From: a virus
Taxonomy: Duplodnaviria > Caudoviricetes
DNA length: 60,418 bases
IMG/VR virus record: IMGVR_UViG_3300025325_000023
Span: 1-60,418 of that record
Direction: 5' to 3' (one strand)
Every line of letters begins with the position of its first letter. The stretch's first letter is position 1. Under the pieces are notes generated by a model that saw nothing but the letters and a program-made list of their open reading frames with translations, did no database searches and was not told the origin of the DNA. The position numbers and the translations under genes are program-made. Positions 1 to 30,641 of the stretch are shown here, piece after piece.

Positions 1-94
1 CGCCCCGCAGTTCGGACACAGCGCCATAGGGTTTGGGAACGGTACCGGGCTTCGTGGTTGTTTGTTTTTGATGGAATTGTAAATTGGTTTTCAT
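1..94 (-). CDS. Hypothetical early protein, truncated by the window edge (MKTNLQFHQKQTTTKPG...)
   Basis: Minus-strand ATG at 94, preceded by AAGGGACC, similar to the AAGGACC leaders of the neighbouring early genes; frame is open to position 1. Confidence 0.45.
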   Translation of the reverse strand, partial: MKTNLQFHQKQTTTKPGTVPKPYGAVSELRG

Positions 95-125
95 AATTGG
101 GTCCCTTGTGTGTGTGTGTGTGTGT

Positions 126-180
126 GAGTAGAACAACCAATGTCGCGCCCTACCAGCCGGGCGCGCGGGTGGTGGGTCTA
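126..180 (-). repeat. 55-nt intergenic repeat with GC hairpin, copy 1
   Basis: GAGTAGAACAACCAAtGTCGCGCCC-taccagcc-GGGCGCGCGGgTGGTGGGTCTA; near-identical to 933-987 apart from the loop. Confidence 0.85.
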
Positions 181-906
181 CACAGCGAAATTGGCTTCCA
201 GGTTGCATAGTCCGTGCAATTTGTTAGTGCGGGCCACAACATCGGGCGCAGCCCACTTTTTCCCCACTTCAGTAATGGCGTTGAATAGGCGCCAGATCGT
301 GGGGTCTTTGAACTGTTCGTACGCAGGGCTTTCCCACGCGGCCAATGCGGCTGGCAGTTGGGTACAATTGAGGACACCTAGTTTCATGGATTCCATCAGC
401 AGCGAGCGGGCCCGGTCGTTTGTAAGTCCGATCTGCTTGTAGGCTGTCACTTGCTCGTGTTGCTTTTCAATGGCGGACCCCAACCGGCCCACGGCATTGC
501 TCACAAGCATAGGTAAATCGTCCATGATGCGGCGGGTGTGACGGCGGGAGATCACCACTTCGGCGCTGAAAGCGAGGTTGTCGCACACAAACACCCGCGA
601 CCCAACACACAAGCTCGCGGGAAAGCGTTTATCATGGGAATTACGCAGTCCGATGGTAGTGCAATAGTCTTCTGCGCCCTGAGCCAAGCTTAGAAGGCCG
701 AAATACCGAGATCCATCGGGAGTTATTGCGTGCTGTTCAGACGCAATTTCTTGGCCATGAAACCCCAGGGAGTTCACCACGGCTCGGTACAATGTGCCAT
801 GGGCGATTGGATAGTGGGTGTCGGTGTTGGGGGGCGGCACGTTGGCTAGTAGATCGGCCAGAGAAACGCGGGAGGTTTCTCGGTGGAGACATAGAGCAGA
901 TGCCAT
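178..906 (-). CDS. DUF932 (DUF945)-family protein
   Basis: T.THYPI.H, GLRNSHDKRFPA.LCVG.RVFVCDNLAF and RRHT motifs, plus C-terminal W.LFNA.TE. Confidence 0.85.
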   Translation of the reverse strand: MASALCLHRETSRVSLADLLANVPPPNTDTHYPIAHGTLYRAVVNSLGFHGQEIASEQHAITPDGSRYFGLLSLAQGAEDYCTTIGLRNSHDKRFPASLCVGSRVFVCDNLAFSAEVVISRRHTRRIMDDLPMLVSNAVGRLGSAIEKQHEQVTAYKQIGLTNDRARSLLMESMKLGVLNCTQLPAALAAWESPAYEQFKDPTIWRLFNAITEVGKKWAAPDVVARTNKLHGLCNLEANFAV

Positions 907-932
907 GGGGTGGTCCTTATGTAATAGGAGTG

Positions 933-987
933 GAGTAGAACAACCAAGGTCGCGCCCTGGTGTTTGGGCGCGCGGTTGGTGGGTCTA
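933..987 (-). repeat. 55-nt intergenic repeat with GC hairpin, copy 2
   Basis: GAGTAGAACAACCAAgGTCGCGCCC-tggtgttt-GGGCGCGCGGtTGGTGGGTCTA. Confidence 0.85.
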
Positions 988-1176
988 GTTATGGGAGCGT
1001 GGGGCGAGGTGATAGGTATCCCACAGGCGAGCGTATAGGTCTAATCGGTTGCAAACGGTAGCGGCATGGCGTGCGGCTTCTCGTGTTCGATGACGAGAGA
1101 CAGTGCGGTTGAGGGTACTGTCCACCACAACGTAGGGCAGCGGTTCATTTGCACGCAATTGGATTGTGTAATTCAT
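985..1176 (-). CDS. Hypothetical early protein (63 aa)
   Basis: ATG preceded by AAGGACCACC; same strand as the neighbouring genes. Confidence 0.65.
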   Translation of the reverse strand: MNYTIQLRANEPLPYVVVDSTLNRTVSRHRTREAARHAATVCNRLDLYARLWDTYHLAPRSHN

Positions 1177-1196
1177 TGGTGGTCCTTCAAGATAGA

Positions 1197-1221
1197 GGAT
1201 AGGATAGGATAGGATAGGATA
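1197..1221. repeat. (GGATA)5 intergenic microsatellite
   Basis: Direct reading; a (TG)10 tract lies similarly at 107-126. Confidence 0.9.
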
Positions 1222-1239
1222 GACTTCAACAACAGCGAA

Positions 1240-1617
1240 CTAGGTGGTAGTGGTTGCGAGTACCTTGTGAATGGTTGTCAGTTGTTCAATGAGATCGCGT
1301 TTGGCTATGTCGCACATATCATCGTAGTAGCCACCGGGTTGGGTGAAGTCTGTTTCGTCCGCATACGAGCAGCATCCCAACATATCACGCCCGACAATGT
1401 GTGGAATGCCGGGGTATCTTGCCTCAACCGTCACATGGGCCCATGCCCAAACATCGCCAGTATTGAGCCGTTCGATTATTTCGTTTTCAATGCGAGTGTC
1501 AAAGGCGTCATCGCCCGAAAACATTGCATTGCCGCGCACGTCGCAATCGTCTTGCCGAACGGTCAGGGCGTAGGTGATTGCGTTTGGGTCCAAGTTTAGG
1601 GTGCGGGTGGTTGTCAT
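1240..1617 (-). CDS. Acidic hypothetical early protein (probable start MTTTRTL)
   Basis: GGAGGAG Shine-Dalgarno upstream of the ATG at 1617. Confidence 0.7.
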   Translation of the reverse strand: MTTTRTLNLDPNAITYALTVRQDDCDVRGNAMFSGDDAFDTRIENEIIERLNTGDVWAWAHVTVEARYPGIPHIVGRDMLGCCSYADETDFTQPGGYYDDMCDIAKRDLIEQLTTIHKVLATTTT

Positions 1618-1662
1618 TGTGTGCTCCTCCGGGGAGATGAAGTGGAATGGTCTGACATCACA

Positions 1663-1690
1663 AGTATGGACCACAGTGGACTAGATGCAA
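1663..1690 (-). promoter_or_regulatory. Putative sigma70 promoter for the leftward early genes
   Basis: TTGCAT-N16-CATACT on the minus strand with an AT-rich upstream tract. Confidence 0.45.
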
Positions 1691-2188
1691 GGAAATTTTC
1701 TTCCGATTACCGACTTTTCCGGCTGGGAGGTTGAGAGTGTGGGGGTTGAGTAGATCACGGATGATTTTCGCTTTCGTTTTTTTTGCGACCGCGTTTGTCA
1801 ACTCTTCTTCTATAGTGGTTTTCCAAAACGGCCATTTTCCCGGTCAGTCGATGTCGATCTCGGGTTGCTTTTTCTGTCCCCTCTTGTGTCGTTGGTATAG
1901 GTAGTGATAGTGACCTAGGGGGTGTGTGTATCGTTATGATACACATTGGTGGATGTAGTGAGGGCGTGGTGTTTGGTGTCACGCTATTGACACAAAGCGT
2001 TACACTGCGTGAGGTTAGGAGGGGTGGGGAGTTAGGGTTGTAGGAATAGTAGGAAGTGTCGGAGTGGGGGAGGGGTGGGGGAGGGGTAGTGGGTGGCACG
2101 GAAGGGTGCGATATTTTAACCCTGGGGTTTTTCTGTCCGGCCTCACTACATATCTAGGTGTCTCCGACTCGCGCAAAATTTTTCAAAA

Positions 2189-2217
2189 TTGACCCTGGGT
2201 TGTTAGCGTCCTATAAT
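2189..2217 (+). promoter_or_regulatory. Consensus sigma70 promoter
   Basis: TTGACC-N17-TATAAT preceded by an A/T-rich UP-like tract. Confidence 0.8.
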
Positions 2218-2223
2218 TAATAT

Positions 2224-2377
2224 GGCGTAGGATGTTTGTCGGGGGGAGGACAGTTATGAAATGGACTGTCAGGATCGTGAGTAAGCTGATTAGTCTCAGT
2301 AGCGGAACGATCTAATGACGCCTGACTAGCGAAAGGTGGCGAAAACGTACCACCCTCCCCCGACAAACGTCCTACAG
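2224..2377 (+). ncRNA. Putative ~150-nt structured RNA or leader of unknown class
   Basis: Starts at the expected +1 of the 2189 promoter; 2227-2249 pairs with 2354-2375 (~22 bp, one G-U pair, one bulge); internal pairings GTCAGG/CCTGAC and GATCGT/ACGATC. Confidence 0.55.
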
Positions 2378-2462
2378 TTTCTGGTACTTGCATTGCCAGA
2401 ATGTACTGGTGGTGTGATGGGTGTGAGTGTTTTTTTGAAGAAGGTTGCCGAGGAGGACCAAC

Positions 2463-2825
2463 ATGTTACGACGTGATTTATTTAAGTTTCTGGCGGGCGG
2501 GGTGGTGGCGGTCGTGGTACGCACCATTCTTCCTGAGAGTTCACCCAAGGAGAGTTCGAACAGGATAAAGGTGGATTGGGAACATGGGCTTGCGGCGGAT
2601 TACAATGTTCCTATGAGTGCCTCGGATGAAGTGGTTAGGATATGGTGGGATGGCGCAGGTTTCGTAGGGCGTCCTGAGTCTGCTGTGCGAGTCCTTTCAG
2701 ACCTAGAGACCGCCAGGGACAAGGCCAGGATGGTAGTTGTCGAGGAGTTGGAAAAGTGTCTATGGGGCGATCTTCCCCAGGACGCCAAGGATGCGTGGAC
2801 AATTAAACGCTGGGGGCCGGTTTGA
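2463..2825 (+). CDS. Twin-arginine signal peptide fused to a major-capsid-like fragment
   Basis: AGGAGG RBS; N-terminus MLRRDLFKFLAGGVVAVVV; mature part VDWEH...VVEELEKCLW...DAWTIKRW resembles MCP VPWRH...LVEELENKAW...DPYSIQYY. Confidence 0.7.
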   Translation: MLRRDLFKFLAGGVVAVVVRTILPESSPKESSNRIKVDWEHGLAADYNVPMSASDEVVRIWWDGAGFVGRPESAVRVLSDLETARDKARMVVVEELEKCLWGDLPQDAKDAWTIKRWGPV

Positions 2826-2850
2826 CAGGGTGTGTTTTGTGTGGTATAGT
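2822..2850 (+). promoter_or_regulatory. Consensus sigma70 promoter with extended -10
   Basis: TTGACA-N17-TATAGT with TG upstream of the -10. Confidence 0.8.
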
Positions 2851-2865
2851 TATCTTTGTTAGGAT

Positions 2866-3099
2866 ATGGGCTATATGGCACACATTTGTTCAGGCATTGA
2901 TTTTGTTCGTCTTGAATCTCCCTCTTCTTTAGTATGTCATCATGCTGGGTTCACTTGTCCGTCGTGTAAGGTACGTATGTATGCGTGTTGCATATCTTAT
3001 CTTCAAGGGGAGTTCGAGGATAGCCGCGTGTATTCTGTGGCGTTGGCGTGCCATGTGTGTAGTTGTTACTGGGTGGAATGGCAGGAGGGTCCGCAATGA
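2866..3099 (+). CDS. Small Cys-rich protein, possibly Zn-binding
   Basis: CPSC...CHVC; lies directly after the promoter; ATGA overlap with the next gene. Confidence 0.55.
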   Translation: MGYMAHICSGIDFVRLESPSSLVCHHAGFTCPSCKVRMYACCISYLQGEFEDSRVYSVALACHVCSCYWVEWQEGPQ

Positions 3100-3353
3100 G
3101 TGATCCAAAGTATCGTGTGTGTAGTGGGGAGGCTCGGTGGGCCATTATCGTCCGTGATGATGAGGGGTGGAGTTTCATGGGAAAGTTTTGTTGGGAGACC
3201 GACAACGATGCACCCGGGATTAGGACGTTTAGGACACAGAGGTCGGCTAGGGCGGCCTTGAAGGAAAGTGGGAGAGGCCGAGAGTCGAAGATCGTTAGAG
3301 TTTTGAATACGGTTGTAGCTGTAAAGCAAGATACTGTGGAGGGGTACCAATGA
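3096..3353 (+). CDS. Hypothetical protein
   Basis: AGGAGG RBS; ATGA coupling at both ends. Confidence 0.65.
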   Translation: MSDPKYRVCSGEARWAIIVRDDEGWSFMGKFCWETDNDAPGIRTFRTQRSARAALKESGRGRESKIVRVLNTVVAVKQDTVEGYQ

Positions 3354-3814
3354 AACCTGCATGTATAATTGTAATGTTAATTGTCTTGGGTGCGGCGGCC
3401 TCTGTTGGGTTTACCAAGCCCAAGTCTGCGCAAGGGGATATTTCCATTCCCTTTGAGGAGATCGGGTTGTTCGACCCATTGCCAGCAGAAGTGGCGGACG
3501 CGCCGCCAGAATTTAGGTTTAAGTGGATTCGTGCCTATAATGAAATGGCCGTACTTCAGGCCCAACGCAGGGCCGATGCGTATCGTGCGAGTAACCCCGT
3601 CCTGGAGGTGTACACCCAAGACCAAGAGTACGTGTCAGGAAGCTCGTTGAACCAACAAGCAAGTGGCGACTACAACAGCGCTCAGCTACAGGCACGGACG
3701 CAAACCACTTACCAAGGACGTAATGTGCAACGGACGTACAGGCCAGATCAGTGGGGTGGGGGTCCCGTAACAATTCTCAACCCGTATACCGAAGTGGAGG
3801 TGGAACATGAGTAA
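3350..3814 (+). CDS. Secreted or membrane-anchored hypothetical protein
   Basis: Signal-peptide-like N-terminus [20 protein letters not shown]. Confidence 0.7.
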
Positions 3815-4433
3815 AAGAATGGTATTTGTACTGATCTTTGTGGGAACAATTGTGTTATACTTTGGGTTACGGTCGGCATTTGGACACGAGAACGGTGCCG
3901 ACCCGCACTCTACCCAAAATGGCAATGGCCATGCAAACCACCATGGATGGGGATTTGGGCACCACGGCGGGCTTACAGGCGGCCCGCCGAATCCTCCAGG
4001 CCCTCCGGGAGATCCTGGCCCCCCAGGCAATCCTGGTCCGCCAGGAACTCCTGGCTCTCCTGGCTCTCCTGGCTCTCCTGGCTCTCCTGGCTCTCCTGGC
4101 TCGCCGGGGGCACCGGGGGCACCGGGGGCACCGGGGGCACCGGGGGCACCGGGGGCACCGGGGGCACCGGGGGCACCGGGGGCACCGGGGGCACAAGGTA
4201 ATTCGAATGGTTCGAATTCTTCGAATAGTTCAAGTAGTTCCAGTAGCACAAGCAGTTATGTTAGTGGAGGTTGGTATGTTCAGTCTAGGTCTATGTACTG
4301 GACGATCCCGTGGTATTCACCAGTGGTTACCCCTTACCCTCTACCAACGATAGTGCCCCCTAGGGGCAAGCCTGGGGTCGATCTTCCCAACTCCTCTTTC
4401 TCTTTCTCTGGTACCGTCTACACTTTTGAATAG
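3807..4433 (+). CDS. Secreted collagen-like (Gly-X-Y repeat) protein
   Basis: Hydrophobic N-terminus, His/Gly-rich segment, run of GPP/GSP/GAP triplets, Ser-rich linker. Confidence 0.75.
4048..4193 (+). repeat. Two perfect 9-bp tandem arrays: (CTCCTGGCT)6 and (CCGGGGGCA)10
   Basis: Direct reading; they encode the PGS and PGA collagen triplets. Confidence 0.95.
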
Positions 4434-4442
4434 GAGTCTTGT

Positions 4443-4634
4443 ATGAATTTCATCCAATTGTATACTAGTCTTATGTGTCTTGGCGTTTTTAGCCTATGTT
4501 ACGGGGGGCTTGAACTGTTGTGCGGTATGTGGGCTGAGTGGAGGGCGGCTCGATTGATGTGCCGTCTGGACGGTTTTGGGACCATCTTGGCTAACCAGTT
4601 TGATAGAGATTATGGAAGGCATTTTGAAAAGTAG
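4443..4634 (+). CDS. Small membrane protein
   Basis: AGGAG RBS; hydrophobic N-terminal half. Confidence 0.6.
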   Translation: MNFIQLYTSLMCLGVFSLCYGGLELLCGMWAEWRAARLMCRLDGFGTILANQFDRDYGRHFEK

Positions 4635-4649
4635 AGGTGGAGTGGGACA

Positions 4650-5096
4650 TTGGGGAGTATGACGACACTGCATGGGGAGAAGAGTGTCCCGAGACTTGGA
4701 GGTAACATGGCTATATTAGCGAAAACTCCGTGGCTGCGTTGTAGGAGAATCAAGGACATGGATTCCTGGTATTATTATTCGGGCTCTCGCCTCCATATCG
4801 GAAAGCAGAGAGCCTGGGTATGTGAGATGGAATTGCATAGAGTGTTTTCTATCCCGTTGGGGTGCGATGTTCGGTTGGTGGCGTTCAACAGGCCTAGCGA
4901 GGATAGGGTCGAGTGCAAGATATTGACAAATGGGGAAGAGGGTAATCTTTTGTATCTTTCTTGCGATATAGGGGACTTTTGTGTAACCAATACGTTGATG
5001 AAGGCTTTGCGCAGGTTGTTGGGTGCCGGATATCGTAAGTTCTATGCAGGAATCGAGGTGCGAGGTGGCAGGAAAAGGCGATCGATCAAGGCATAA
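4650..5096 (+). CDS. Hypothetical protein (start may be the ATG at 4707)
   Basis: GGAGG upstream of MAILAK; fits the operon packing. Confidence 0.6.
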   Translation: MGSMTTLHGEKSVPRLGGNMAILAKTPWLRCRRIKDMDSWYYYSGSRLHIGKQRAWVCEMELHRVFSIPLGCDVRLVAFNRPSEDRVECKILTNGEEGNLLYLSCDIGDFCVTNTLMKALRRLLGAGYRKFYAGIEVRGGRKRRSIKA

Positions 5097-5190
5097 CCCG
5101 CGCTTGTATGGGCGTGGGTGGGAGAGAATTTTTGGTAAGCAAGCGTCTACCCCAAAGAAGATTAGTTTTAAAAAGGAGAAGGTGGCATGA
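5065..5190 (+). CDS. Small phage protein of the GKGD.R...W.RIF type (41 aa, below the ORF-track cutoff)
   Basis: MAGKGDRSRHNPRLYGRGWERIFGK..., a short motif family I recognise from phage genomes; ATGA coupling to the next ORF. Confidence 0.55.
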   Translation: MAGKGDRSRHNPRLYGRGWERIFGKQASTPKKISFKKEKVA

Positions 5191-5288
5191 TTGACAACGA
5201 TATTCCACCGTGGGCCATGTTCATCACGATTATTATTGGCCTGGCCATTCTGTGCTATGTTATTTGTCCTGGAGGGTTGATGCGATGA
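5187..5288 (+). CDS. 33-aa single-TM peptide
   Basis: MIDNDIPPWAMFITIIIGLAILCYVICPGGLMR; ATGA coupling on both sides. Confidence 0.55.
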   Translation: MIDNDIPPWAMFITIIIGLAILCYVICPGGLMR

Positions 5289-5596
5289 CGCTTGGCAGTT
5301 TTTCTCACATAATTGCTGAGTTAGGTACTCCTGTTCACTTAATAGACAAGGAGGATTACAAGTATGCTTATGTGAATCTCTACGACAAAGGTTGGGCGGA
5401 ATGGACAGTAAAATACCTTGGGTTAGAGATGATGTTGAAAGATTTGATAGCGTGTCTGGAAAAGACATCCCCGCAACCTAAGTGCATTGATTATGTCATT
5501 GTTGATCTAAATGATGTTCTTTATTCATACCTGGCCCGGTATGAGGACGACATTGACCTTGAGGGTCCTGTGACAGAGAACTTGGAGATAGATTGA
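5285..5596 (+). CDS. Hypothetical protein
   Basis: GGAGG RBS and ATGA overlap at 5285. Confidence 0.6.
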   Translation: MTLGSFSHIIAELGTPVHLIDKEDYKYAYVNLYDKGWAEWTVKYLGLEMMLKDLIACLEKTSPQPKCIDYVIVDLNDVLYSYLARYEDDIDLEGPVTENLEID

Positions 5597-5775
5597 CCAT
5601 GTTAAGTTACATCCTTTTCTGCCTTCGTTTTTTTATCAGTCTATGTCTCTTGGTTTCAGCATGGAAGGCGTTTGATTGTTCTGGGGACGCAGATACCGTT
5701 TTGTCTACGTGGGGTTGGTGCTCTATAGCCTTGCTTAGTTCGATTCTAGCAGTCGCGGTATTGTTCGTCTCTTAG
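5593..5775 (+). CDS. Small two-TM membrane protein
   Basis: Two hydrophobic stretches. Confidence 0.55.
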   Translation: MTMLSYILFCLRFFISLCLLVSAWKAFDCSGDADTVLSTWGWCSIALLSSILAVAVLFVS

Positions 5776-5786
5776 GAGGTGTTCGT

Positions 5787-6020
5787 ATGGTGGTGGACAA
5801 ATCCGTGGATACAGGGATTAACTATGTCATGTATGATAAATCTCAAATGCCCGAGGGGGCCGCGAAGAGATTGAGATTTATACATGAGCGCTTGGAACTT
5901 GGGTGGGAGTATGTTAGGATTACGAGGCCTTGGTCGGGTAATCCAATGCCGGTGTTTCTGGTAAAGAACGATGAACAAATTCCAACATGTTCAATATCCG
6001 GACCGAATGATCCAAAGTGA
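5787..6020 (+). CDS. Hypothetical protein
   Basis: AGGAGG RBS. Confidence 0.6.
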   Translation: MVVDKSVDTGINYVMYDKSQMPEGAAKRLRFIHERLELGWEYVRITRPWSGNPMPVFLVKNDEQIPTCSISGPNDPK

Positions 6021-6225
6021 TGAAGAGGCACAATGGATACGGAAGTGCGTGGAGTTCGGCACCCTGGAGATTTCACAGTTGGCCAAACATTATGGGGTTC
6101 GCCAGTGGGAGATTCTACGTATTGTGAACCGCGAGGGAGAGTGGTCGCATCTGCCTCCAATAAGCTTGATGGGGGAAGTAGTGGCACTCCATCGCAGTAT
6201 GATTCGTTGGACTCCGCCAGATTGA
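5971..6225 (+). CDS. Small helix-turn-helix DNA-binding protein
   Basis: ISQLAKHYGVRQWEILRIVNR..WSHL resembles the HTH tail of phage HNH/NUMOD-type proteins. Confidence 0.55.
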   Translation: MNKFQHVQYPDRMIQSDEEAQWIRKCVEFGTLEISQLAKHYGVRQWEILRIVNREGEWSHLPPISLMGEVVALHRSMIRWTPPD

Positions 6226-8006
6226 ATTCGGATTTTCAGGATCAGTTTGTCCGGTGGCATGAGAATTTCGAGGAGGAAGTGTCTCCGAAATGGCCCTCGT
6301 TGGATAGAATCTGGGTAGGCGACTTCGAATTTTATCAGCCACCCGGCGCCCGTCAATCACCGCATTGTTGTGTCTTTCGTAACTTGGGGCGTGACATTGA
6401 GGTCAATGGGGTCCCCCACGGAATTCTCACCTCGGATGATATCTTTGTCTTTTACTACGCGCCGGCCGACCTCGGATGCTACCTAGCTCTTGAGGTCCCT
6501 CTTCCTCGATATGTGGTTGATCTGTATGCAGAATTCAGGAATCTTACCAACGGGGGGCGCAAAGATCGAGGGGAGGGGTTGTATGATGCCATGGACTATT
6601 ACCACATTCCTCACGCCACAAAAGAAAATAAAGCGGGGATGCACGACCTTGCTACGAAAGCCGCCCACTTATCTGACGAGGAAACGGCCCTCTTACTTAA
6701 GTATTGTGCTGATGACGTAAAGTGTACCAGCGCTCTGTTCGAGACTATGTTGCCATTGATGAATCTGCCGCAGGCCCTCCTCCGTGGGCGTTATACCAAA
6801 GCCGTGGCGAGAATGGAGGCCGTGGGAGTTCCTATAGATGCTCTGGGGTTGGGTGAGATTCGAGCTAGTCGCGTCTATTTGCAGCACAAGTTGATTGATC
6901 GTATTGATGACCAATACCATATCTATAATAAAGGTGTTTTCAAACAAAAAGCATTCACCACATGGGTTAATGATAATCAATTGCCATGGCCGAGGTTGAA
7001 AAGTGGGAAAGTGGCCTTGGACAAGGGAACATTCGATTATATGAGTGAAGCGTATCCGATTGTTGAGCCTATAGCCGAGTTACGTCAAACCTTGGGCACC
7101 ATTAGGAACGAGAGTCTGTCAGTAGGTCAGGATAATCGTAATCGGTGCATGTTATCCCCGTTTCGTTCACAGACGGGAAGAAACCAGCCGTCTAACTCTA
7201 AATTCATTTTCGGGCAAAGCGCCTGGATGCGACACTTGATTCGACCGGAACCGGGGCAGGCCCTGGCGTATTTGGATTGGGAGCAACAGGAGTTTGCTAT
7301 TGCGGCGGCTCTATCTAAAGATAGTCGTATGATGGAGTCTTACCTGTCCGGCGATCCGTATTTGTATTTTGCAAAGATTGCCTACAATCTACCTGAGACC
7401 GCCAAGAAGACAGACCCAGATGTGTCAGAGAAGCGGGATCGCTGTAAGCAGTGCATCTTGGCGGTTCAGTATGGCTTGGGGGTGCGGTCTTTGGCCAACA
7501 GGTTGGCTATTGAAGCTAAGGAGGCGGCCTATTTGATGTACCTTCATCGATCCACCTATCGAGACTACTGGCTGTGGTCTCAATGGGCTATTCGTTTTGG
7601 CCTTATGACCAAGAGTATTCATACTGTCTTTGGGTGGAATCTGACAGTGTCTAGGGGCACTGGGCTGCGGAGTGTTATGAACTTCCCAATGCAAGCCAAT
7701 GGGGCGGAAATGCTTCGTCTTGGGTGTTGTTATCTTACCGAAGAAGGAATTGATGTGTGTGCGCCGGTACACGATGCGGTATTGATCGCAGCCCCCCTCG
7801 ACCATATCTCCAGTACGGTGGTCAGGGCTCAACGCCTTATGGAACGGGCGAGCCTTGACGTACTGGAAAACCTGACCGTGCGCACCGAAGCTAAAATCAT
7901 ACGATATCCTGATACATACATACAGGCTAAAGGGCAAGGTACATGGGAAGAAGTACAGAAAATGCTGAAGGACAAGGAAAATGAAGATAACAAGAAAGCC
8001 AGGTAG
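6033..8006 (+). CDS. polA: Family A DNA polymerase with 3'-5' exonuclease (true start probably the TTG at 6222 or GTG at 6279)
   Basis: ExoI DFEF, ExoIII YCADD, TGRNQ, motif A DWEQQE, motif B RDRCKQCILAVQYG, NFPMQANGAEM, motif C VHDA. Confidence 0.95.
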   Translation: MDTEVRGVRHPGDFTVGQTLWGSPVGDSTYCEPRGRVVASASNKLDGGSSGTPSQYDSLDSARLNSDFQDQFVRWHENFEEEVSPKWPSLDRIWVGDFEFYQPPGARQSPHCCVFRNLGRDIEVNGVPHGILTSDDIFVFYYAPADLGCYLALEVPLPRYVVDLYAEFRNLTNGGRKDRGEGLYDAMDYYHIPHATKENKAGMHDLATKAAHLSDEETALLLKYCADDVKCTSALFETMLPLMNLPQALLRGRYTKAVARMEAVGVPIDALGLGEIRASRVYLQHKLIDRIDDQYHIYNKGVFKQKAFTTWVNDNQLPWPRLKSGKVALDKGTFDYMSEAYPIVEPIAELRQTLGTIRNESLSVGQDNRNRCMLSPFRSQTGRNQPSNSKFIFGQSAWMRHLIRPEPGQALAYLDWEQQEFAIAAALSKDSRMMESYLSGDPYLYFAKIAYNLPETAKKTDPDVSEKRDRCKQCILAVQYGLGVRSLANRLAIEAKEAAYLMYLHRSTYRDYWLWSQWAIRFGLMTKSIHTVFGWNLTVSRGTGLRSVMNFPMQANGAEMLRLGCCYLTEEGIDVCAPVHDAVLIAAPLDHISSTVVRAQRLMERASLDVLENLTVRTEAKIIRYPDTYIQAKGQGTWEEVQKMLKDKENEDNKKAR

Positions 8007-8436
8007 GCCTGTCAACAAACGTGCAAACTGTCATCATCCGCTTTATGCTTCGTGGAGGTCTCATAGAGCTAGAGGTAACCTATTGACAACGACTTTCCGG
8101 GAGTTTTTAGACAGGGTGGCCCTCGCTGGCTGGCGCCCTGATGTTGGGTATCGGGTGTTTGTTGACCCCTTGACCGAAGAGATTACTGTCTATAAAGCCA
8201 TCCACGACTTTGCGGAGTATCGGTTGTGGATTCGTATGATGTCCGAGGGGTCGGTGGGTGGAAAGTCTACAGTGTGCGTTGCTTGGCACGATTTCTTTGA
8301 GTTTCGGGAATGGGTACTATCTTTTTATTTGGATGGAAAAATAGATTTTACCAACAAGTCGGTAAAGGTAGCCCGTCAAGACTCGTTGCGTTTTTTTAAC
8401 CCAGCTAACAGTTTCCTAACTTATGGTGTCCAATGA
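7981..8436 (+). CDS. Hypothetical protein, resembling a degenerate HNH-associated domain
   Basis: HPLYASW...Y.LW..M...VC.AW.DF.EF.EW pattern; no intact catalytic motif seen. Confidence 0.55.
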   Translation: MKITRKPGRPVNKRANCHHPLYASWRSHRARGNLLTTTFREFLDRVALAGWRPDVGYRVFVDPLTEEITVYKAIHDFAEYRLWIRMMSEGSVGGKSTVCVAWHDFFEFREWVLSFYLDGKIDFTNKSVKVARQDSLRFFNPANSFLTYGVQ

Positions 8437-9179
8437 CTTATTTTGAGTGCCCGGAATTTTTTTCTCCAGAGGGGGTGGCATCTATCTTTGGCCCACTTCC
8501 TGGGGAGTTGCGGTGGCCAAAAACTCATAGTACCTTGGTTCGCAATCCCACGCTCAGTAAATATGCGCACCAACCTTTGTTAACTATGGGCCAAGAGTAT
8601 CACCTGTTTAGGAAATACAATTACTGTAAGTTTGCGGACAGGGACGAGGAAGTTATAGGGTTGCGAAATGAGCTTGTGAGGTATAATTATCGTCTGGTTA
8701 TCTCTTTATGGTCCAATTATAACCGGCGGGCGGAATTGTTTGATGATTACATACAGCGCGGGGTATTGACGTTGATACGTTGTGTGGATGGATTTGATTA
8801 CCGGAGAGGTTATAAGTTTGTGACCTATGCATACAAATCGCTGCGGTGTACCTTGACCGACCAAGATCGGGAAAATTGTAAGTATTATAGAAGATTTGAG
8901 GGATTATCGCAACTTACAGCTGGGTGGGTTGAGGATTATCGCGAAAATTGTCATAATACTAATAGGGACCCTGTGGTGATTTCCGCCATTTGTCGGGCTA
9001 TTAAGGCTTTGCCGGAGAGAATGCAGGAAACACTAAGGTTTAGGTTTTGGGAGGGGTTGACGTATTCCGAAATTGGTAGGCGGCGGGGGGTGACCAAGCA
9101 AGCGGCAGCATTGGCTGTAAAGTTCGCCATAAATCGAGTTGGCCGCAGCCCAGAAATGAAGAGAATAAGGGAGTGCTAA
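8433..9179 (+). CDS. Sigma-70 family RNA polymerase sigma factor 1
   Basis: PLLT..QE..LF (region 1.2), NYRLVIS / DYIQRG..LIRCVDGFDYRRGYKFVTYA (region 2), LPER...LTYSEIG..GVTK (region 4). Confidence 0.9.
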   Translation: MTYFECPEFFSPEGVASIFGPLPGELRWPKTHSTLVRNPTLSKYAHQPLLTMGQEYHLFRKYNYCKFADRDEEVIGLRNELVRYNYRLVISLWSNYNRRAELFDDYIQRGVLTLIRCVDGFDYRRGYKFVTYAYKSLRCTLTDQDRENCKYYRRFEGLSQLTAGWVEDYRENCHNTNRDPVVISAICRAIKALPERMQETLRFRFWEGLTYSEIGRRRGVTKQAAALAVKFAINRVGRSPEMKRIREC

Positions 9180-9838
9180 TGACGGGTATGGACCCCCAGA
9201 TGTTTGAGCAATGGCGGCATTTGGTTGAGCATATTGTTGGGCATAATTTTGAGTGGGCATACCGGGCTGGGGCCGCGTCAGTTGACGGACGGCGAGTGTC
9301 TAGGTTGTTGGAGCGAGAGGATTTGCTGCAAGAAGGGCGTTTGGCGCTGCTGGAAGCGTGGCGAGACTATAAGACAGATCATATTAAACAGGCTAAGTTC
9401 ATAACGTATGCGTATACCTGTATTTATTGGACGGTGTTCAAATTTGTGTGTAATAATTTGTCTCCAGTTTCTATGCGAGGATGGCAAAAAGATTTTCATA
9501 GCTCTAATGCGGCCCATAGAGGCAGGTTCGTGGCGGCCTTGGCGTGCCATCTTTTTAGTGAAACTGACGGGGAGGACGCTGTGGTTCTCCAAGGAGAGTC
9601 CATTGTAGACTATCGAGAGAACGAGTTGTCAGATTTTGAAGATCACTGTTTGGAAAAATTGCGGGCCAATCTTCTAGAATGGGAAGTGGAGGCCCTGCTG
9701 TTGCGGTTTAACGGAAACACCTACTCTCATATTGGGCAATACCTTGAATGCTCAAGAGAGACTGCCAGGAAGATAGTGGGAAACATGCTTATTGAGGCGA
9801 AAATGGTATTAAAAGAGGAGAGCCATGACAAGTTCTAG
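9173..9838 (+). CDS. Sigma-70 family RNA polymerase sigma factor 2
   Basis: EDLLQEGRLALLEA..DY...AKFITYAY (region 2), G.TYSHIG..LECSRETAR (region 4). Confidence 0.85.
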   Translation: MLMTGMDPQMFEQWRHLVEHIVGHNFEWAYRAGAASVDGRRVSRLLEREDLLQEGRLALLEAWRDYKTDHIKQAKFITYAYTCIYWTVFKFVCNNLSPVSMRGWQKDFHSSNAAHRGRFVAALACHLFSETDGEDAVVLQGESIVDYRENELSDFEDHCLEKLRANLLEWEVEALLLRFNGNTYSHIGQYLECSRETARKIVGNMLIEAKMVLKEESHDKF

Positions 9839-10043
9839 GCACGGCATCGCTAAACAGCGCAAAACGTTAGAGGTCTCTGTCCAAAGTTGGAACGCTTGGA
9901 AAGTAGCCGCTCAAGTATCAAACATCAGTATCTTAATGTTTATTACAACGGTATGTGACCACGCGGCCAAGCAGGTGATTGCAGCTTGGGAAGAGGAGAA
10001 TAACATTGTTGAACGTAACGGCGAGCGACTCATCGACATCTGA
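9825..10043 (+). CDS. Small ribbon-helix-helix-like protein (DUF1778-like pattern)
   Basis: Beta-strand followed by WKVAAQVSNISILMFI...AAKQVI; GAGGAG RBS. Confidence 0.45.
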   Translation: MTSSRHGIAKQRKTLEVSVQSWNAWKVAAQVSNISILMFITTVCDHAAKQVIAAWEEENNIVERNGERLIDI

Positions 10044-10419
10044 TTATGCGTTGTCGAGGTCTGAGGTACAGTTAGACGTAAGTCATGTATATGAAATTAC
10101 GTTATTGCGCTTAATGTGGGAGGTGGTGTTGGTATTGATGCGAGCTACCAAGGCTGAGGAGGCAGCTTTGTTAAGTTTGTTTTTAACGTCCGCACACGAG
10201 GAAATGTTACGCTTTGGTATGGTGTTGGTCAATAGTGGCCGGTTTCCTAGTGCGAAGTCTGATAGTATTTTGGAAGCTGTCAGTGACATGTCTATTGGGG
10301 TCTCTCGGGTGTATAAGACACAACTAAAAACACCACTATTGACCCCTATGATTAAAACTTTTTTAGCGGAATTGGTCGAGAAGGGAAGTCGAGGGTCGGA
10401 TGCGCCACCCCCGTCATAA
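9979..10419 (+). CDS. Hypothetical protein
   Basis: Open frame filling the operon. Confidence 0.5.
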   Translation: MQLGKRRITLLNVTASDSSTSDYALSRSEVQLDVSHVYEITLLRLMWEVVLVLMRATKAEEAALLSLFLTSAHEEMLRFGMVLVNSGRFPSAKSDSILEAVSDMSIGVSRVYKTQLKTPLLTPMIKTFLAELVEKGSRGSDAPPPS

Positions 10420-10684
10420 TATTGTATTCCGGGCCGGAAACTGCTTAATTGAGTGTTCGGTCGTTGCCAGCGTTGTCGCTTCGGCAGAAGAGGAGAAGGG
10501 TCCCTGGACGGTAACGGTGGGATTTTGTGGAAGTGACAGGACCATACAACTACGGGTGGGCGATAGGGAGGAGGCGGTGTGTATTTTGGCCAGCCTTGAG
10601 AGAGGCATGGTGGCATCCCAGACTGGTGATTGGCGCCTTCTTGAGGGTTACGGGGAGGACGAGGCAGGATCCCCGGCTGAGTGA
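10400..10684 (+). CDS. Hypothetical protein
   Basis: Last + ORF, converging on the recombinase. Confidence 0.5.
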   Translation: MRHPRHNIVFRAGNCLIECSVVASVVASAEEEKGPWTVTVGFCGSDRTIQLRVGDREEAVCILASLERGMVASQTGDWRLLEGYGEDEAGSPAE

Positions 10685-10691
10685 GAAGAGG

Positions 10692-11264
10692 TTACCAGCG
10701 GACCGTTTGAATCGTCTTTACTAATGCTGGGTCGCCAATATGGTCAATGTATTTGCTCGTCACCGCGATGTTCGTGTGGCCAAGTTGGCGTTGTATGATC
10801 CGTAGGTCTACTCCGCTGTTTGCCAGGTGGAAGGCTGAGCTATGACGAAATTTGTGTGGGTGGACCCGCTTAGAAATGCCAGCCTTACGTGCGGCTGCTT
10901 TGACAGTACGGCGGACGGAAGAAGTGTCCATGCGCCCCCCTGTCCATGTGCAAAACAGCGTGTCTCCTTTTGGCCGCACCTTGTTCCACTCGATGATCTC
11001 CGCGAACACTTTTGGGTCAGCCCCTACTACCCTCCTCTTTCCACCCTTCCCGAGCACTATGGTTATAGTACCCGCAGCTTCGTTTATATCCCCAGGCCTT
11101 AGTGCCGTAAGTTCAGCACACCTTATGGCTGTCCTGTACATGACAAGTATCATGGTTCGGTTTCGAAGGCCCGTGTTATTTGGCGGGAATGTTCGCAAGA
11201 TACGATCCACTTCGTTTGTTGTAAGAACTTCAACATCGAATTTCTTGCCTTTGTTGTTACTCAC
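10692..11264 (-). CDS. Tyrosine recombinase, catalytic domain only (190 aa; Xer/FimB/resolvase-like)
   Basis: R (TAIRCAEL), K (GKGGK), HxxR (HKFRH), LGH, catalytic Y (TSKY). Confidence 0.92.
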   Translation of the reverse strand: MSNNKGKKFDVEVLTTNEVDRILRTFPPNNTGLRNRTMILVMYRTAIRCAELTALRPGDINEAAGTITIVLGKGGKRRVVGADPKVFAEIIEWNKVRPKGDTLFCTWTGGRMDTSSVRRTVKAAARKAGISKRVHPHKFRHSSAFHLANSGVDLRIIQRQLGHTNIAVTSKYIDHIGDPALVKTIQTVRW

Positions 11265-11538
11265 ATTGAGTCTCCGAAGTTAAGTGTACCACACTTTTTG
11301 GAGAAGTCCAGTAGGGTTATGATTTTTTATGTAAGGAGCGGAGTGATGTTGATTTTGTATTGTGGCGATGATTAAATTTTGGTGTGCAGCAAGAAATCTG
11401 AGGATAGGTTGTTGAAGGTCTGGTTTAAGAAGGGAGAGCGAGATTTAGAGGATTATGAGCGATCGGAGCACAAAGGTGATATTGTAGAAATTGAAACCCG
11501 GTTTGCAGTCGATGGTTGTGTTGCAACTTAGGGTATTC

Positions 11539-11609
11539 GCCCTGTTCGACTTCTGGGAGGTCATCAGCCCCGCAAGCTGATTAGGAGAGTTCGACTCTCT
11601 CACTGGGTG
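11539..11609 (+). tRNA. Atypical tRNA-like element, anticodon CGC (nominally Ala), possibly pseudo-tRNA
   Basis: Cloverleaf: acceptor GCCCTGT/ACTGGGT (1 mismatch), D-arm GACT-TCTGGGA-GGTC, anticodon arm TCAGC-CCCGCAA-GCTGA, 4-nt variable loop, T-arm GAGAG-TTCGACT-CTCTC; C33, no encoded CCA. Confidence 0.65.
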
Positions 11610-11622
11610 TTGAGGTGGTAAT

Positions 11623-25884: not shown

Positions 25885-26928
25885 ATGCCTATTCTTTCAG
25901 TCTCCGATTTGGGTGACTTGACGGCCGTAACCCTACGTGATTTGGGTCCCCTCAAGTTTAATCAAATCGCCCAAAGCCTTCAATATTACGAGGTGTTCTC
26001 GAAGTGGTTCAAGAAGGACAAAGTTCAATTTGAGAGCGGCCAAGGCATTCAACGGAACCTTATGCTCTCCTTTGATATCACGGCGGCCAGGCACGTTGGC
26101 TTAGGAGAGACGGATCAGGTCAATATTCCTGACGTGATCTCGTTGCTCCAAGTGCCGTGGCGTCACGCACAGACCAGTTGGGGCTTGTTCTATCAAACGG
26201 ACATTTTGATGAATCGCGGCAAGGCTCTGATTCTCAATGTCTTGAAGCCTCGCCGGGCGTCGGCTTTGCTGGCTTTAGTTGAAGAGCTAGAGAACAAGGC
26301 ATGGGCGACCGCTCCAAGCACTACAAATGAAGTCGACCCGTACAGCATTCAATACTACATTGTAGAGAACGCCACGACGGGATTCAACGGAGGTGCGCCT
26401 GGAAGCCATACTTTGGTGGCCAACATCAATCCGACTACCAACGCCAACTTTAAAAACTACACGGCTGTGTATACGAATAAGACAAAGGCCGACCTCGTGT
26501 CCAAGTTGCGCACGGCCCACCGTAGCTGCCGATTCAAGAGCCCGGTGACTGTGCAAGACTACCGAGCTGGGCTTGGAGACAAGTACCGGTTGTACTGCAA
26601 CGAAACGACCATTACCGCTTTCGAAGACCTTGGCGAAGCCCAGAACGAAAATCTCGGCCGCGACATCGCTTCTCTCGATGGCATGGTTATGTTCCGCCGT
26701 CATCCAATTATCTGGGTTCCCAAATTAGACGCGCGCACGGACGATCCGGTCTACATGATCGACCATAGCACGTTCTATCCGGCGTGTCTCAAGGGTGACT
26801 ATCTTCGTGAAAGCACGGCGGACAAGGCTCCGAACCAACATAACATGTTCGAAGTCTTCGTCGACCTCACGTATAACTATGTGTGCGACGATCGTCGTCG
26901 AAATGCTGTGTTGAGCACGAGTGTGTAA
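25885..26928 (+). CDS. Major capsid protein (HK97 fold)
   Basis: 347 aa after the scaffold, GGAG RBS; E-loop-like SGQGIQRNL...QVPWRH, long helix ending VEELENKAW, MFRRHPIIWVP, C-terminal RRRNAVL. Confidence 0.85.
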   Translation: MPILSVSDLGDLTAVTLRDLGPLKFNQIAQSLQYYEVFSKWFKKDKVQFESGQGIQRNLMLSFDITAARHVGLGETDQVNIPDVISLLQVPWRHAQTSWGLFYQTDILMNRGKALILNVLKPRRASALLALVEELENKAWATAPSTTNEVDPYSIQYYIVENATTGFNGGAPGSHTLVANINPTTNANFKNYTAVYTNKTKADLVSKLRTAHRSCRFKSPVTVQDYRAGLGDKYRLYCNETTITAFEDLGEAQNENLGRDIASLDGMVMFRRHPIIWVPKLDARTDDPVYMIDHSTFYPACLKGDYLRESTADKAPNQHNMFEVFVDLTYNYVCDDRRRNAVLSTSV

Positions 26929-29662: not shown

Positions 29663-29675
29663 TTAAGGTATAGGC

Positions 29676-29771
29676 ATGAGTTCACAGAACGTACTCCGAC
29701 AACTACAGCAAGCCATAGAAACTGGGAGCTTTGGGCAACCACTAAGTCGAGTCGTGCCTGTAGTTACATAA
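29676..29771 (+). CDS. 31-aa mini-protein matching the N-terminal motif of the flanking paralogs
   Basis: MSSQNVLRQLQQAIETGSF vs MGSSNIWRLLQAAWLNGAEPF and MSDRNVLRRLQNALTRGEAF. Confidence 0.55.
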   Translation: MSSQNVLRQLQQAIETGSFGQPLSRVVPVVT

Positions 29772-30631: not shown

Positions 30632-30641
30632 TAGGAATCAT

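What the first reader, a model, noticed from the sequence alone, without database searches (positions are those of the whole stretch)
2463..2825. Tat-signal ORF whose body mirrors the MCP E-loop/backbone-helix region
By-eye alignment to the MCP: IKVDWEH vs LQVPWRH; VRVLSDLETARDKARMVVVEELEKCLW vs ALILNVLKPRRASALLALVEELENKAW (gapless, VEELE and W identical); DAWTIKRW vs DPYSIQYY. Three colinear blocks are unlikely by chance. It is the first clear protein gene after the consensus promoter at 2189 and the structured RNA, about 23 kb from the capsid gene.
Basis: partly seen in the sequence, partly recalled or inferred. Interest (0 to 1): 0.85.

Follow-up and report, generated by a model that had tools for sequence, protein, structure and literature searches.

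The report
Small phage gene, capsid likeness doubtful
A small early gene of an uncultured soil phage encodes a probably membrane-targeted protein, and its short resemblance to the phage's own capsid protein is most likely coincidence.

Summary
ORF 2463-2825 (+) is a real-looking 120-aa gene. It has a GAGGAGG Shine-Dalgarno 6 nt before the ATG and in-frame codon bias, and the identical protein is on record from 10 contigs. It has no relatives in any search.

All three quoted blocks exist, in colinear order. Only the helix block carries signal:
- Smith-Waterman scores 52; 1 of 2000 shuffles reach it.
- hhalign against a 30-sequence capsid profile gives probability 42%, E 2.6e-4.
- Capsid-family HMMs give 7.7 and 6.5 bits; 1 of 5000 and 0 of 5000 shuffles reach these.

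The signal is fragile:
- BLASTP does not report it.
- Length-normalised, the pair ranks 20th of 3240 protein pairs in the window.
- 108 of 3240 pairs share an exact pentapeptide.
- With VEELE masked the score falls into the shuffle range (321 of 1500 as good).
- Blocks 1 and 3 add nothing.
- Both structure models are unusable (pLDDT 44 and 35.6).

The N-terminus has RR, then 11 uncharged residues, then a basic residue. It misses the curated Tat model, which does catch another ORF of this phage.

Verdict: an orphan early gene for a probably envelope-targeted protein. Capsid mimicry is unproven, at about 1 in 5.

The parts
2189..2217 (+). sigma-70-like promoter, TTGACC-17 nt-TATAAT (11 of 12)
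   Evidence: In 1-6500, 7 promoter-like sites were found against 5.7 +/- 2.5 in shuffles, so the site is a consensus match and not proof of function.
2227..2375 (+). structured 5' leader RNA: a multi-branch domain closed by a long stem of about 20 pairs
   Evidence: 2222-2470 folds at -92.5 kcal/mol, z -4.16, and 0 of 200 shuffles fold as well. There is no Rfam match at gathering score or at E <= 1.
2450..2456 (+). Shine-Dalgarno GAGGAGG, 6 nt before the ATG
   Evidence: read
2463..2825 (+). ORF P0001, 120 aa, an orphan gene
   Evidence: Codon log-likelihood favours this frame by 0.18 and 0.29 per codon over the other two phases. The identical protein is on record from 10 contigs.
2463..2534 (+). 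N-terminal targeting region (residues 1-24): MLRRDLFK, then 11 uncharged residues FLAGGVVAVVV, then R20
   Evidence: Kyte-Doolittle maxima are 2.76 (11-residue window at residue 9) and 1.82 (19-residue window at residue 6). There is no TIGR01409 or PF10518 match.
2562..2582 (+). block 1, IKVDWEH (residues 34-40)
   Evidence: Its best profile match is colinear (HMM 87-95) but scores -2.0 bits; 352 of 3000 shuffles score as well.
2688..2813 (+). capsid-like stretch (residues 76-117): a predicted helix plus a Trp-rich tail
   Evidence: hhalign probability 42%, E 2.6e-4. HMM scores 7.7 and 6.5 bits. PSSM Smith-Waterman 55.2 and 49.9 against about 26 +/- 4 in shuffles.
2739..2753 (+). pentapeptide VEELE (residues 93-97), shared exactly with the capsid protein
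   Evidence: Masking it removes the signal. Of the five codon pairs, one is identical at DNA level. The one natural variant on record reads VEEVE.
2822..2850 (+). second promoter-like site, TTGACA-17 nt-TATAGT with TG (11 of 12); its -35 box overlaps the stop codon of P0001
25885..26928 (+). major capsid protein gene (P0002, 347 aa)
   Evidence: NF033394 capsid_maj_Podo, E 4.3e-32, 111.6 bits against a cutoff of 80. 921 relatives at E <= 0.001.
26227..26358 (+). capsid residues 115-158, the stretch that P0001 resembles. It contains the long helix 113-139, which is probably the HK97-fold spine helix.
   Evidence: Helix limits come from DSSP on a low-confidence model. Calling it the spine helix is inference from the canonical HK97 order and was not shown here.

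Best explanation
ORF 2463-2825 is a genuine, lineage-restricted (orphan) early gene of an uncultured podovirus-type phage from soil metagenomes. The phage's capsid family is found mostly in Planctomycetota assemblies.

The gene is the only ORF between two near-consensus sigma-70-like promoters (2189 and 2822). It is translated from a strong Shine-Dalgarno after a structured leader of about 240 nt.

The 120-aa product has a positively charged twin-arginine N-terminus (MLRRDLFK), an 11-residue hydrophobic stretch and a basic residue after it. No signal-peptidase or lipobox site is recognisable. I therefore read it as an uncleaved N-in/C-out signal anchor, or an exported protein. That places a Trp-rich domain of about 95 residues (two short strands, one helix of about 20 residues) outside the cytoplasm.

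Like several neighbouring small ORFs with hydrophobic N-termini, it most likely acts at the cell envelope early in infection, for example in superinfection exclusion or envelope remodelling.

Shown here: the gene signals, the sequence features, and the lack of relatives. Inferred: localisation, timing and function.

The resemblance of residues 76-117 to capsid residues 115-158 is a helix-to-helix likeness seeded by one shared pentapeptide plus three aromatic matches. It is most likely coincidental.
For: Gene reality:
- SD GAGGAGG 6 nt before the ATG.
- Codon log-likelihood +0.18 and +0.29 per codon over the alternative phases, similar to neighbouring genes.
- The same 120-aa protein is on record from 10 contigs in 4 source collections.
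- 8 contig pieces from 4 further metagenome runs are identical.

Orphan status:
- The word-indexed search found only its own cluster among 10 candidates.
- phmmer over 1.84 billion representatives found its own cluster plus two low-complexity repeat proteins.
- The phage collection gave no match.
- 0 of 23 pattern hits in viral contigs and 0 of 595 in metagenome contigs encode a relative.
- 0 of 5 related phage records match.
- Pfam, PHROGs, NCBIfam and PADLOC gave no family.

Envelope targeting:
- RR-x-L-F, then 11 uncharged residues, then R20; Kyte-Doolittle 19-residue maximum 1.82.
- Neighbouring ORFs 3350-3814, 3807-4433, 4443-4634 and 5593-5775 also begin with hydrophobic segments.
- A second ORF of the phage, 55290-55724, passes TIGR01409, so exported small proteins do occur in this phage.

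Chance reading of the capsid likeness:
- BLASTP does not report the block.
- E is about 0.1 against the window's + strand ORFs.
- The pair is 20th of 3240.
- 108 of 3240 pairs share an exact 5-mer. P0001 shares one with three different proteins, and the DNA polymerase shares NLGRDI with the capsid protein.
- Masking VEELE leaves 28.2 against 25.9 +/- 3.7.
- Blocks 1 and 3 add no significance.
- There is no DNA-level trace of duplication: 39 of 81 nt identical, and 2 of 10 identical residues use the same codon, one of them the single Trp codon.
Against: The capsid likeness is stronger than a typical chance hit.
- The capsid protein is P0001's best hit among 249 window ORFs, 52 against 39.
- The likeness survives, and slightly improves, against family profiles. 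The PSSM score is 55.2 with z 7.2 and 0 of 1500 shuffles as good. hmmsearch shuffles reach it 1 of 5000 and 0 of 5000 times.
- It falls on conserved family positions: R124, A127, V132, L135, E136, W140.
- 60 of 90 family members place their best alignment in the same stretch. Several score higher than the phage's own protein, up to 70, and 0 of 400 max-over-90 shuffles reach 70 (Gumbel P 1.2e-3).
- The predicted helix ends coincide under the alignment: P0001 81-101 against capsid 113-139, offset 39. Both models are of low confidence.

For the targeting reading:
- No curated signal model matches.
- No cleavage site is seen.
- No signal-peptide or topology predictor was available.

For the function: there is no evidence at all beyond position and sequence features.
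Confidence: 0.6

Rival explanations
1. P0001 is an old, truncated derivative or mimic of the capsid protein's E-loop and spine-helix region (capsid residues about 41-158) that has acquired an export or anchor signal. It would act through that likeness, for example as a decoy for a host sensor of capsid protein, or as a modulator or poison of capsid assembly, its own or a competitor's.
For: - Profile-level similarity at single-test p of about 1e-4 to 1e-3.
- The matches fall on conserved capsid positions.
- The best profile match of the N-terminal half is also colinear, HMM 87-95 against residues 34-42.
- Softer gaps align almost the whole of P0001 colinearly with HMM 41-155.
- P0001 is the second-best non-capsid ORF of 3859 in seven genomes.
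- Capsid proteins are known triggers of several defence systems (passages read in PMC13728456).
Against: - The whole signal depends on one pentapeptide.
- The extra blocks lower the significance rather than raise it.
- The HMM score of 6.5-7.7 bits is far below the family cutoff of 80.
- After correction for about 80 genes, p is about 0.01-0.1. There is no correction for the other target proteins or for the many windows scanned.
- Comparable near-misses occur in other genomes.
- The only natural variant on record changes the pentapeptide to VEEVE.
- An exported or C-out domain would not meet capsid proteins or cytoplasmic sensors.
- There is no structural support and there are no homologues.
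- No capsid-fragment decoy appeared in the passages that matched 'capsid', 'decoy' or 'mimic' in one review, nor in the 11 titles and abstract openings listed by one search.
Confidence: 0.2
2. P0001 is a true Tat substrate, a folded and possibly cofactor-free periplasmic protein exported by TatABC. Its function is unrelated to the capsid.
For: - R-R-x-hydrophobic-hydrophobic at residues 3-7, a Gly/Val/Ala-rich h-region and a basic residue after it. That last feature is typical of Tat signals; this is recalled knowledge.
- Protein-language-model neighbours include clusters carrying Tat signals, but at scores of 0.79-0.80, which the tool says are leads only.
- Another ORF of the phage passes TIGR01409, and a related phage has an RR-type 123-aa ORF.
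Against: - No match to TIGR01409 (E up to 10) or PF10518.
- Only 11 uncharged residues. As I recall it, TATFIND asks for 13; that rule comes from memory and from no call.
- The residue before RR is Leu, not Ser/Thr.
- No AxA cleavage site.
- The host is unknown and only inferred.
Confidence: 0.25
3. The frame is not translated. The 363-nt ORF is a by-product of a G-rich early leader region, and the transcript from the 2189 promoter works as RNA only.
For: - No diverged homologue exists, so purifying selection cannot be shown.
- A large structured RNA lies directly upstream.
- Some neighbouring small ORFs show no codon signal, for example 2866-3099 and 3807-4433.
Against: - A strong SD at ideal spacing and an ATG start.
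- The codon log-likelihood favours this frame, and both shifted frames are negative.
- Four source collections hold the same 120-aa gene call.
Confidence: 0.07

Closest known systems
Podovirus-type HK97-fold major capsid proteins (NCBIfam NF033394 capsid_maj_Podo), here the phage's own gene 25885-26928
   Same: P0001 residues 76-117 align with capsid residues 115-158. This is the long helix thought to be the spine helix, plus about 20 residues after it. Identities fall on conserved family positions: R, A, VEELE, W.
   Different: - 120 aa against about 345.
- HMM score 6.5-7.7 bits against a cutoff of 80.
- No A-domain and no N-arm.
- It carries an N-terminal RR/hydrophobic signal.
- It lies in the early region 23 kb from the structural genes.
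- No structural evidence.
Twin-arginine (Tat) signal peptides (TIGR01409, PF10518)
   Same: RR followed by two hydrophobic residues, a moderately hydrophobic Gly/Ala/Val h-region, and a basic residue in the c-region.
   Different: It does not reach either curated model, while ORF 55290-55724 of the same phage does. The h-region is short at 11 residues, and no AxA site is present.
Small phage-encoded membrane proteins that act at the envelope, for example superinfection-exclusion proteins such as P22 SieA. PMC10883804 and PMC11436027 were seen as search listing and abstract openings only. T4 Imm and Sp are recalled.
   Same: It is small, has an N-terminal membrane segment, lies among early non-structural genes, and belongs to no wide family.
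   Different: It has no sequence relation to any of them (PHROGs, Pfam and PADLOC are empty). No phenotype is known. The analogy is by position and architecture only.
Capsid proteins as triggers of bacterial defence (CapRel SJ46, TIR/Thoeris and CBASS examples; passages read in PMC13728456)
   Same: This gives a conceivable use for a capsid-like decoy.
   Different: No capsid-fragment decoy is described in the passages read. P0001 would be outside the cytoplasm if its signal works. Nothing links it to any defence system.

Membership tests
HK97-fold major capsid protein (NF033394 capsid_maj_Podo) | Score at or above the family's curated cutoff (80 bits) | tested here: not met
   NCBIfam lists no capsid model for P0001 at E <= 10. 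My own family HMMs give 7.7 and 6.5 bits. The real capsid protein scores 111.6 bits.
HK97-fold major capsid protein (NF033394 capsid_maj_Podo) | Complete fold: N-arm, E-loop, P-domain with spine helix, A-domain (about 300 or more residues) | tested here: not met
   P0001 has 120 residues. Even the most generous alignment covers only HMM 41-155.
HK97-fold major capsid protein (NF033394 capsid_maj_Podo) | Predicted or solved structure superposable on the E-loop/spine-helix part | tested here: inconclusive
   AlphaFold2 gave pLDDT 35.6 for P0001 and 44.0 for the capsid protein. The Atlas model has pLDDT 0.40. No fold search was run, because the tool states that low-confidence models give meaningless matches.
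HK97-fold major capsid protein (NF033394 capsid_maj_Podo) | Similarity above chance after multiple-testing correction | tested here: inconclusive
   Single-test p is about 1e-4 to 1e-3. It is about 0.01-0.1 for the window's 80 genes or so. The pair is 20th of 3240. The signal is lost when VEELE is masked.
Tat signal peptide (TIGR01409 / PF10518) | Match to the curated signal model | tested here: not met
   No TIGR01409 hit at E <= 10. No PF10518 hit at E <= 10. As a positive control, ORF 55290-55724 scores 16.9 bits against a cutoff of 16.7.
Tat signal peptide (TIGR01409 / PF10518) | R-R-x-hydrophobic-hydrophobic motif near the N-terminus, followed by an uncharged h-region | tested here: met
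   RRDLF at residues 3-7, then FLAGGVVAVVV (11 residues, mean Kyte-Doolittle 2.76).
Tat signal peptide (TIGR01409 / PF10518) | Signal-peptidase site (small residues at -3 and -1) after the h-region | tested here: not met
   The sequence after the h-region is RTILPESSPKESS. No A-x-A-like site and no lipobox Cys are seen (read by eye; no predictor was available).
Tat signal peptide (TIGR01409 / PF10518) | Export that depends on TatABC and on the RR pair | not testable with these tools
   This needs an experiment.
Phage superinfection-exclusion / envelope-acting small membrane proteins | Homology to a described exclusion or defence protein | tested here: not met
   PHROGs, Pfam and PADLOC each gave 0 families.
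Phage superinfection-exclusion / envelope-acting small membrane proteins | Membrane localisation and an exclusion phenotype | not testable with these tools
   Only a hydrophobic N-terminal segment is seen.

The most novel reading that the evidence does not exclude
P0001 is an exapted fragment of a capsid gene of this phage family. It would be a 'mini-capsid' made of the E-loop and spine-helix region, fused to an export or anchor signal and expressed first after infection. Its retained capsid-like surface (R..A....VEELE...W) would bind something that normally recognises capsid protein: a host sensor, a scaffold, or a rival phage's capsomers. That would be a new kind of phage counter-measure or exclusion device built from a structural gene.
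Probability: 0.17. Interest if true: 0.7.

Novelty: not a real feature. Interest (0 to 1): 0.2.

Why it matters
If the likeness were real, it would be a first case of a phage re-using a piece of its capsid gene as an early, exported small protein. That would bear on how phages evade defences that sense capsid proteins.

As the evidence stands, the gene itself is real but ordinary. It is one more orphan early gene with a membrane-targeting N-terminus, in a poorly known group of phages probably infecting Planctomycetota.

The useful result is a caution. A by-eye match of three blocks, seeded by a shared pentapeptide, reaches p of about 1e-3 in a single shuffle test. Yet it is unremarkable among the 3240 protein pairs of one phage genome.

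Tried and rejected
- **BLASTP, P0001 against the capsid protein:** it does not report the block. The best HSP is a 5-residue match at E 1.9.
- **Family libraries:** Pfam, PHROGs, NCBIfam and PADLOC gave nothing for P0001 except a spurious LipJ line at E 0.053.
- **Homologue hunts:** all were empty apart from the protein's own cluster. P0124 and P0125 are low-complexity tandem-repeat proteins and were rejected as spurious.
- **Syntenic orthologues:** I tried to reach them through the neighbouring DNA polymerase. It has no relative in viral contigs and 0 of 5 matches in capsid-related records. The replication module is therefore not shared, and no positional comparison was possible.
- **DNA of 2180-2830 in 5 related records:** only 14-15-nt matches at E 0.14-0.5.
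- **Structure:** both AlphaFold2 jobs gave unusable models, so no superposition or fold search was attempted.
- **Capsid profile against PDB sequences:** 0 hits at E <= 10.
- **Protein Atlas:** no hit reaches 0.9, no capsid-like neighbour appears, and the structural TM scores are below 0.5.
- **Complex prediction (capsid alignment plus P0001 28-120):** no support and no verdict, score 0.00. This is not evidence either way.
- **Sequencing runs:** no RNA holder is listed.
- **Contigs of 4 runs laid on 2180-2900:** 8 pieces with 0 differences. There is therefore no natural variation with which to test selection, and no piece spans the whole stretch.
- **Technical failures:** an hhalign shuffle series timed out and was replaced by hmmsearch and PSSM shuffles. 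The first codon comparison was off by one residue and was redone.
- **i-spanin / o-spanin reading:** considered and rejected. The gene lies in the early block, and the only embedded + strand ORF (2737-2862) has no lipobox.
- **Small ORF of record G003 (22301-22570, -):** it scores 14.1 bits on the capsid HMM. I followed it as a possible second 'capsid-fragment' gene, but it too is an orphan, so it gives no test.
Full report
**What is at the coordinates.** Window 2463-2825 (+) is an open frame of 120 codons (P0001). GAGGAGG lies at 2450-2456, six bases before the ATG. The frame's codon usage fits the window's long genes better than either shifted phase does, by +0.18 and +0.29 log-likelihood units per codon; both shifted readings are negative. 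The identical protein is on record from 10 contigs in four source collections, the longest 68,972 bases. Eight contig pieces from four further soil or sediment metagenome runs are letter-identical. I take it to be a real gene.

It is the only ORF between two near-consensus sigma-70-like sites: TTGACC-17-TATAAT at 2189-2217, and TTGACA-17-TATAGT at 2822-2850. The second site's -35 box overlaps the stop codon. Between the first promoter and the gene lies a strongly structured RNA, 2227-2375. The stretch 2222-2470 folds with z -4.16, and 0 of 200 shuffles fold as well. It has no Rfam match.

**The genome.** The window is a whole IMG/VR virus record, estimated 82% complete. It has:
- a family A DNA polymerase at 6033-8006;
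- a tRNA-Ala;
- a scaffold-like acidic protein at 24771-25859;
- a major capsid protein at 25885-26928.

The capsid protein passes NCBIfam NF033394 capsid_maj_Podo (111.6 bits, cutoff 80), although Pfam and PHROGs are silent. It has 921 relatives at E <= 0.001 in metagenomes but none in the cultured-phage collection. Of 18 relatives found in prokaryote assemblies, 13 lie in Planctomycetota MAGs or isolates. A planctomycete host is therefore likely; binning of phage contigs is imperfect.

**The observation.** All quoted strings are present and colinear. The gapless middle block, P0001 75-101 against capsid 114-140, has 10 of 27 identities.

Pairwise statistics:
- Smith-Waterman (BLOSUM62, 11/1) scores 52 over P0001 77-110 and capsid 116-149.
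- Shuffles give 29.3 +/- 4.65; 1 of 2000 reach 52.
- The Karlin-Altschul E for the pair is 0.0016.
- The capsid protein is P0001's best hit among 249 six-frame ORFs; the next scores 39.
- BLASTP with composition adjustment does not report the block at all.

Profile statistics:
- hhalign of a 30-sequence capsid alignment against P0001 gives probability 42%, E 2.6e-4, over 42 columns.
- Family HMMs score P0001 7.7 bits (30 sequences) and 6.5 bits (90 sequences).
- 1 of 5000 and 0 of 5000 shuffles do as well. The best of 248 other window ORFs scores 3.0 and 1.4 bits.
- A PSSM Smith-Waterman gives z 7.2 and 6.2, with 0 of 1500 shuffles as good each time.
- The matched residues are the family's conserved ones: R124, A127, V132, L135, E136, W140.
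- P0001 scores higher against other family members than against its own capsid protein. The best is 70, its own is 49th of 201, and the median is 44. 0 of 400 max-over-90 shuffles reach 70, Gumbel P 1.2e-3.

Taken alone, the middle block is thus better than chance at about 1e-4 to 1e-3.

**Why I still read it as probably chance.**

1. *Multiplicity.* The pair's E becomes about 0.1 against the window's + strand ORFs. Among all 3240 pairs of 81 non-overlapping + strand ORFs, 31 reach a raw score of 52. By length-normalised E the pair is 20th; roughly half of those above it are obvious paralogues and the rest are unrelated pairs.

2. *Real-sequence nulls.*
   - Of the 2004 ORFs in the 80 capsid loci, 81 score over 100 bits as capsid proteins. 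Among the other 1923, one scores higher than P0001.
   - Among 3859 non-capsid ORFs of seven full records, P0001 is second. One ORF scores 8.4 and 14.1 bits, and another 6.1 and 5.8.
   - A hit of this size therefore turns up about once per few thousand ORFs. That is once per some tens of phage genomes.

3. *The seed is ordinary.* 108 of 3240 pairs share an exact pentapeptide. P0001 shares one with three different proteins. The DNA polymerase even shares the hexapeptide NLGRDI with the capsid protein's most conserved motif.

4. *The signal is not distributed.* With VEELE masked, the profile score drops to 28.2 against 25.9 +/- 3.7, and 321 of 1500 shuffles are as good. What remains is three aromatic matches in a protein that is 5% Trp.

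5. *The other two blocks do not help.*
   - Softer gaps that admit them lower the significance. Pairwise, 6, 28 and 21 of 1000 shuffles reach the score. With the profile, z falls to 3.3-3.5.
   - Block 1's best profile match is indeed at the colinear place, but at -2.0 bits. 352 of 3000 and 268 of 3000 shuffles match that.

6. *No trace of duplication at DNA level.* 39 of 81 bases are identical. Of 10 identical residues, 2 use the same codon, and one of those is Trp.

7. *The one natural variant on record reads VEEVE* (P0004).

**What could not be tested.** AlphaFold2 gave pLDDT 44.0 for the capsid protein with its alignment and 35.6 for P0001 alone. The Atlas model of P0001 has pLDDT 0.40. 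The only usable remark is that the predicted helices (capsid 113-139, P0001 81-101) end at equivalent positions under the alignment.

Calling capsid 113-139 the spine helix is my inference from the canonical HK97 order: a long helix after the E-loop strands. It is not a result.

No homologue of P0001 exists in any collection searched. The neighbouring polymerase module is not shared by capsid-related phages. Neither conservation nor synteny could therefore be used.

**The N-terminus.** MLRRDLFK-FLAGGVVAVVV-R-TILPESS has the core R-R-x-hydrophobic-hydrophobic motif, 11 uncharged residues and a basic residue after them. This looks Tat-like, and weak language-model neighbours carry Tat signals (0.79-0.80, leads only). 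But neither TIGR01409 nor PF10518 matches. TIGR01409 does pass for ORF 55290-55724 of this same phage (16.9 bits, cutoff 16.7). No signal-peptidase site or lipobox is visible. I read the segment as an uncleaved signal anchor or export signal of uncertain pathway.

Four neighbouring small ORFs also start with hydrophobic segments. One of them carries collagen repeats. The early block seems rich in envelope-directed proteins.

**Best explanation and rivals.**
- *Most likely (0.6).* An orphan early gene for a small envelope-targeted protein, with the capsid likeness coincidental. A role at the envelope early in infection (exclusion of other phages, envelope remodelling) is inferred from architecture and position only.
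- *Capsid-fragment or mimic reading (about 0.2).* It is not excluded, because the profile-level signal sits on conserved positions.
- *True Tat export.* This sub-question is compatible with either reading (about 0.25).
- *Untranslated frame.* Unlikely (0.07).

**Comparison with what is known.** P0001 fails every testable membership criterion for the capsid family: score, length and fold coverage. It meets only the motif-level criterion for Tat signals. It has no relation to described exclusion or defence proteins.

Capsid proteins are known triggers of several defence systems (passages read in PMC13728456). I saw no report of a capsid-fragment decoy in those passages, nor in the 11 titles and abstract openings listed by the search. 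One review and one search cannot show that none is in print.

**Verdict.** I rate the flagged feature, a body that mirrors the capsid protein, as probably not real. The gene itself is real but ordinary. Interest 0.2.

Noticed in passing
window 2227-2375 (+), behind the promoter-like site at 2189-2217: A 149-nt multi-branch RNA domain closed by a stem of about 20 pairs. The stretch 2222-2470 folds with z -4.16, and 0 of 200 shuffles fold as well. There is no Rfam family at gathering score or at E <= 1. It would be the 5' leader of the P0001 transcript, or a separate small RNA.
   Followed up: partly
window 55290-55724 (+): This 144-aa ORF begins MMPDRRGFIGACFAGLAGV. It passes the curated Tat-signal model TIGR01409 (16.9 bits, cutoff 16.7). 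Its mature part has no family in Pfam, NCBIfam or PADLOC and is unrelated to P0001. A related record has a 123-aa ORF with an RR-type N-terminus (G002 27944-28315). Small exported proteins may be a habit of this phage group.
   Followed up: partly
record G003 22301-22570 (-) = L087:2301-2570 (-): An 89-aa orphan ORF lies upstream of the capsid gene, with about 1.3 kb between them where I assume a scaffold gene lies (not checked). It scores 14.1 bits on the 90-sequence capsid HMM. The match is LEDLQKRQNAVIGRDL against the family's most conserved motif, LEDvGEaQNENLGRD. It has no relatives beyond itself. It is either a second chance hit or a second capsid-fragment-like ORF.
   Followed up: partly
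window 25885-26928 and loci L102-L119: The capsid family has 921 metagenomic relatives but no match in the 50,697-record cultured-phage collection. 13 of 18 matches in prokaryote assemblies lie in Planctomycetota. This is probably a large uncultured group of planctomycete phages with genomes of about 60-73 kb.
   Followed up: partly
window 3807-4433 (+): A 208-aa early ORF has an N-terminal hydrophobic segment and about 25 collagen-like G-x-P triplets (Pfam Collagen, E 9.5e-16). It is unusual outside tail-fibre genes, and its frame shows no codon-usage signal.
   Followed up: no
window 18399-19169, 21620-24400, 28484-33260: There are several families of internal paralogues. 28484-29662, 29771-30631, 32122-32679 and 32634-33260 score 130-511 against one another. 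18399-19169 scores 390 against the 926-aa Laminin_G_3 protein at 21620-24400. These are likely a diversified set of fibre or receptor-binding modules.
   Followed up: no
window 1-12000 and 54000-60418: There is a strong positive GC skew (0.12-0.30) on the + strand in the non-structural parts, against about 0 in the structural block. G-runs are abundant around 2000-2100.
   Followed up: no
window 6033-8006 against 25885-26928: The DNA polymerase and the capsid protein share the exact hexapeptide NLGRDI. This is a handy in-genome example of how long a chance identity can be.
   Followed up: yes
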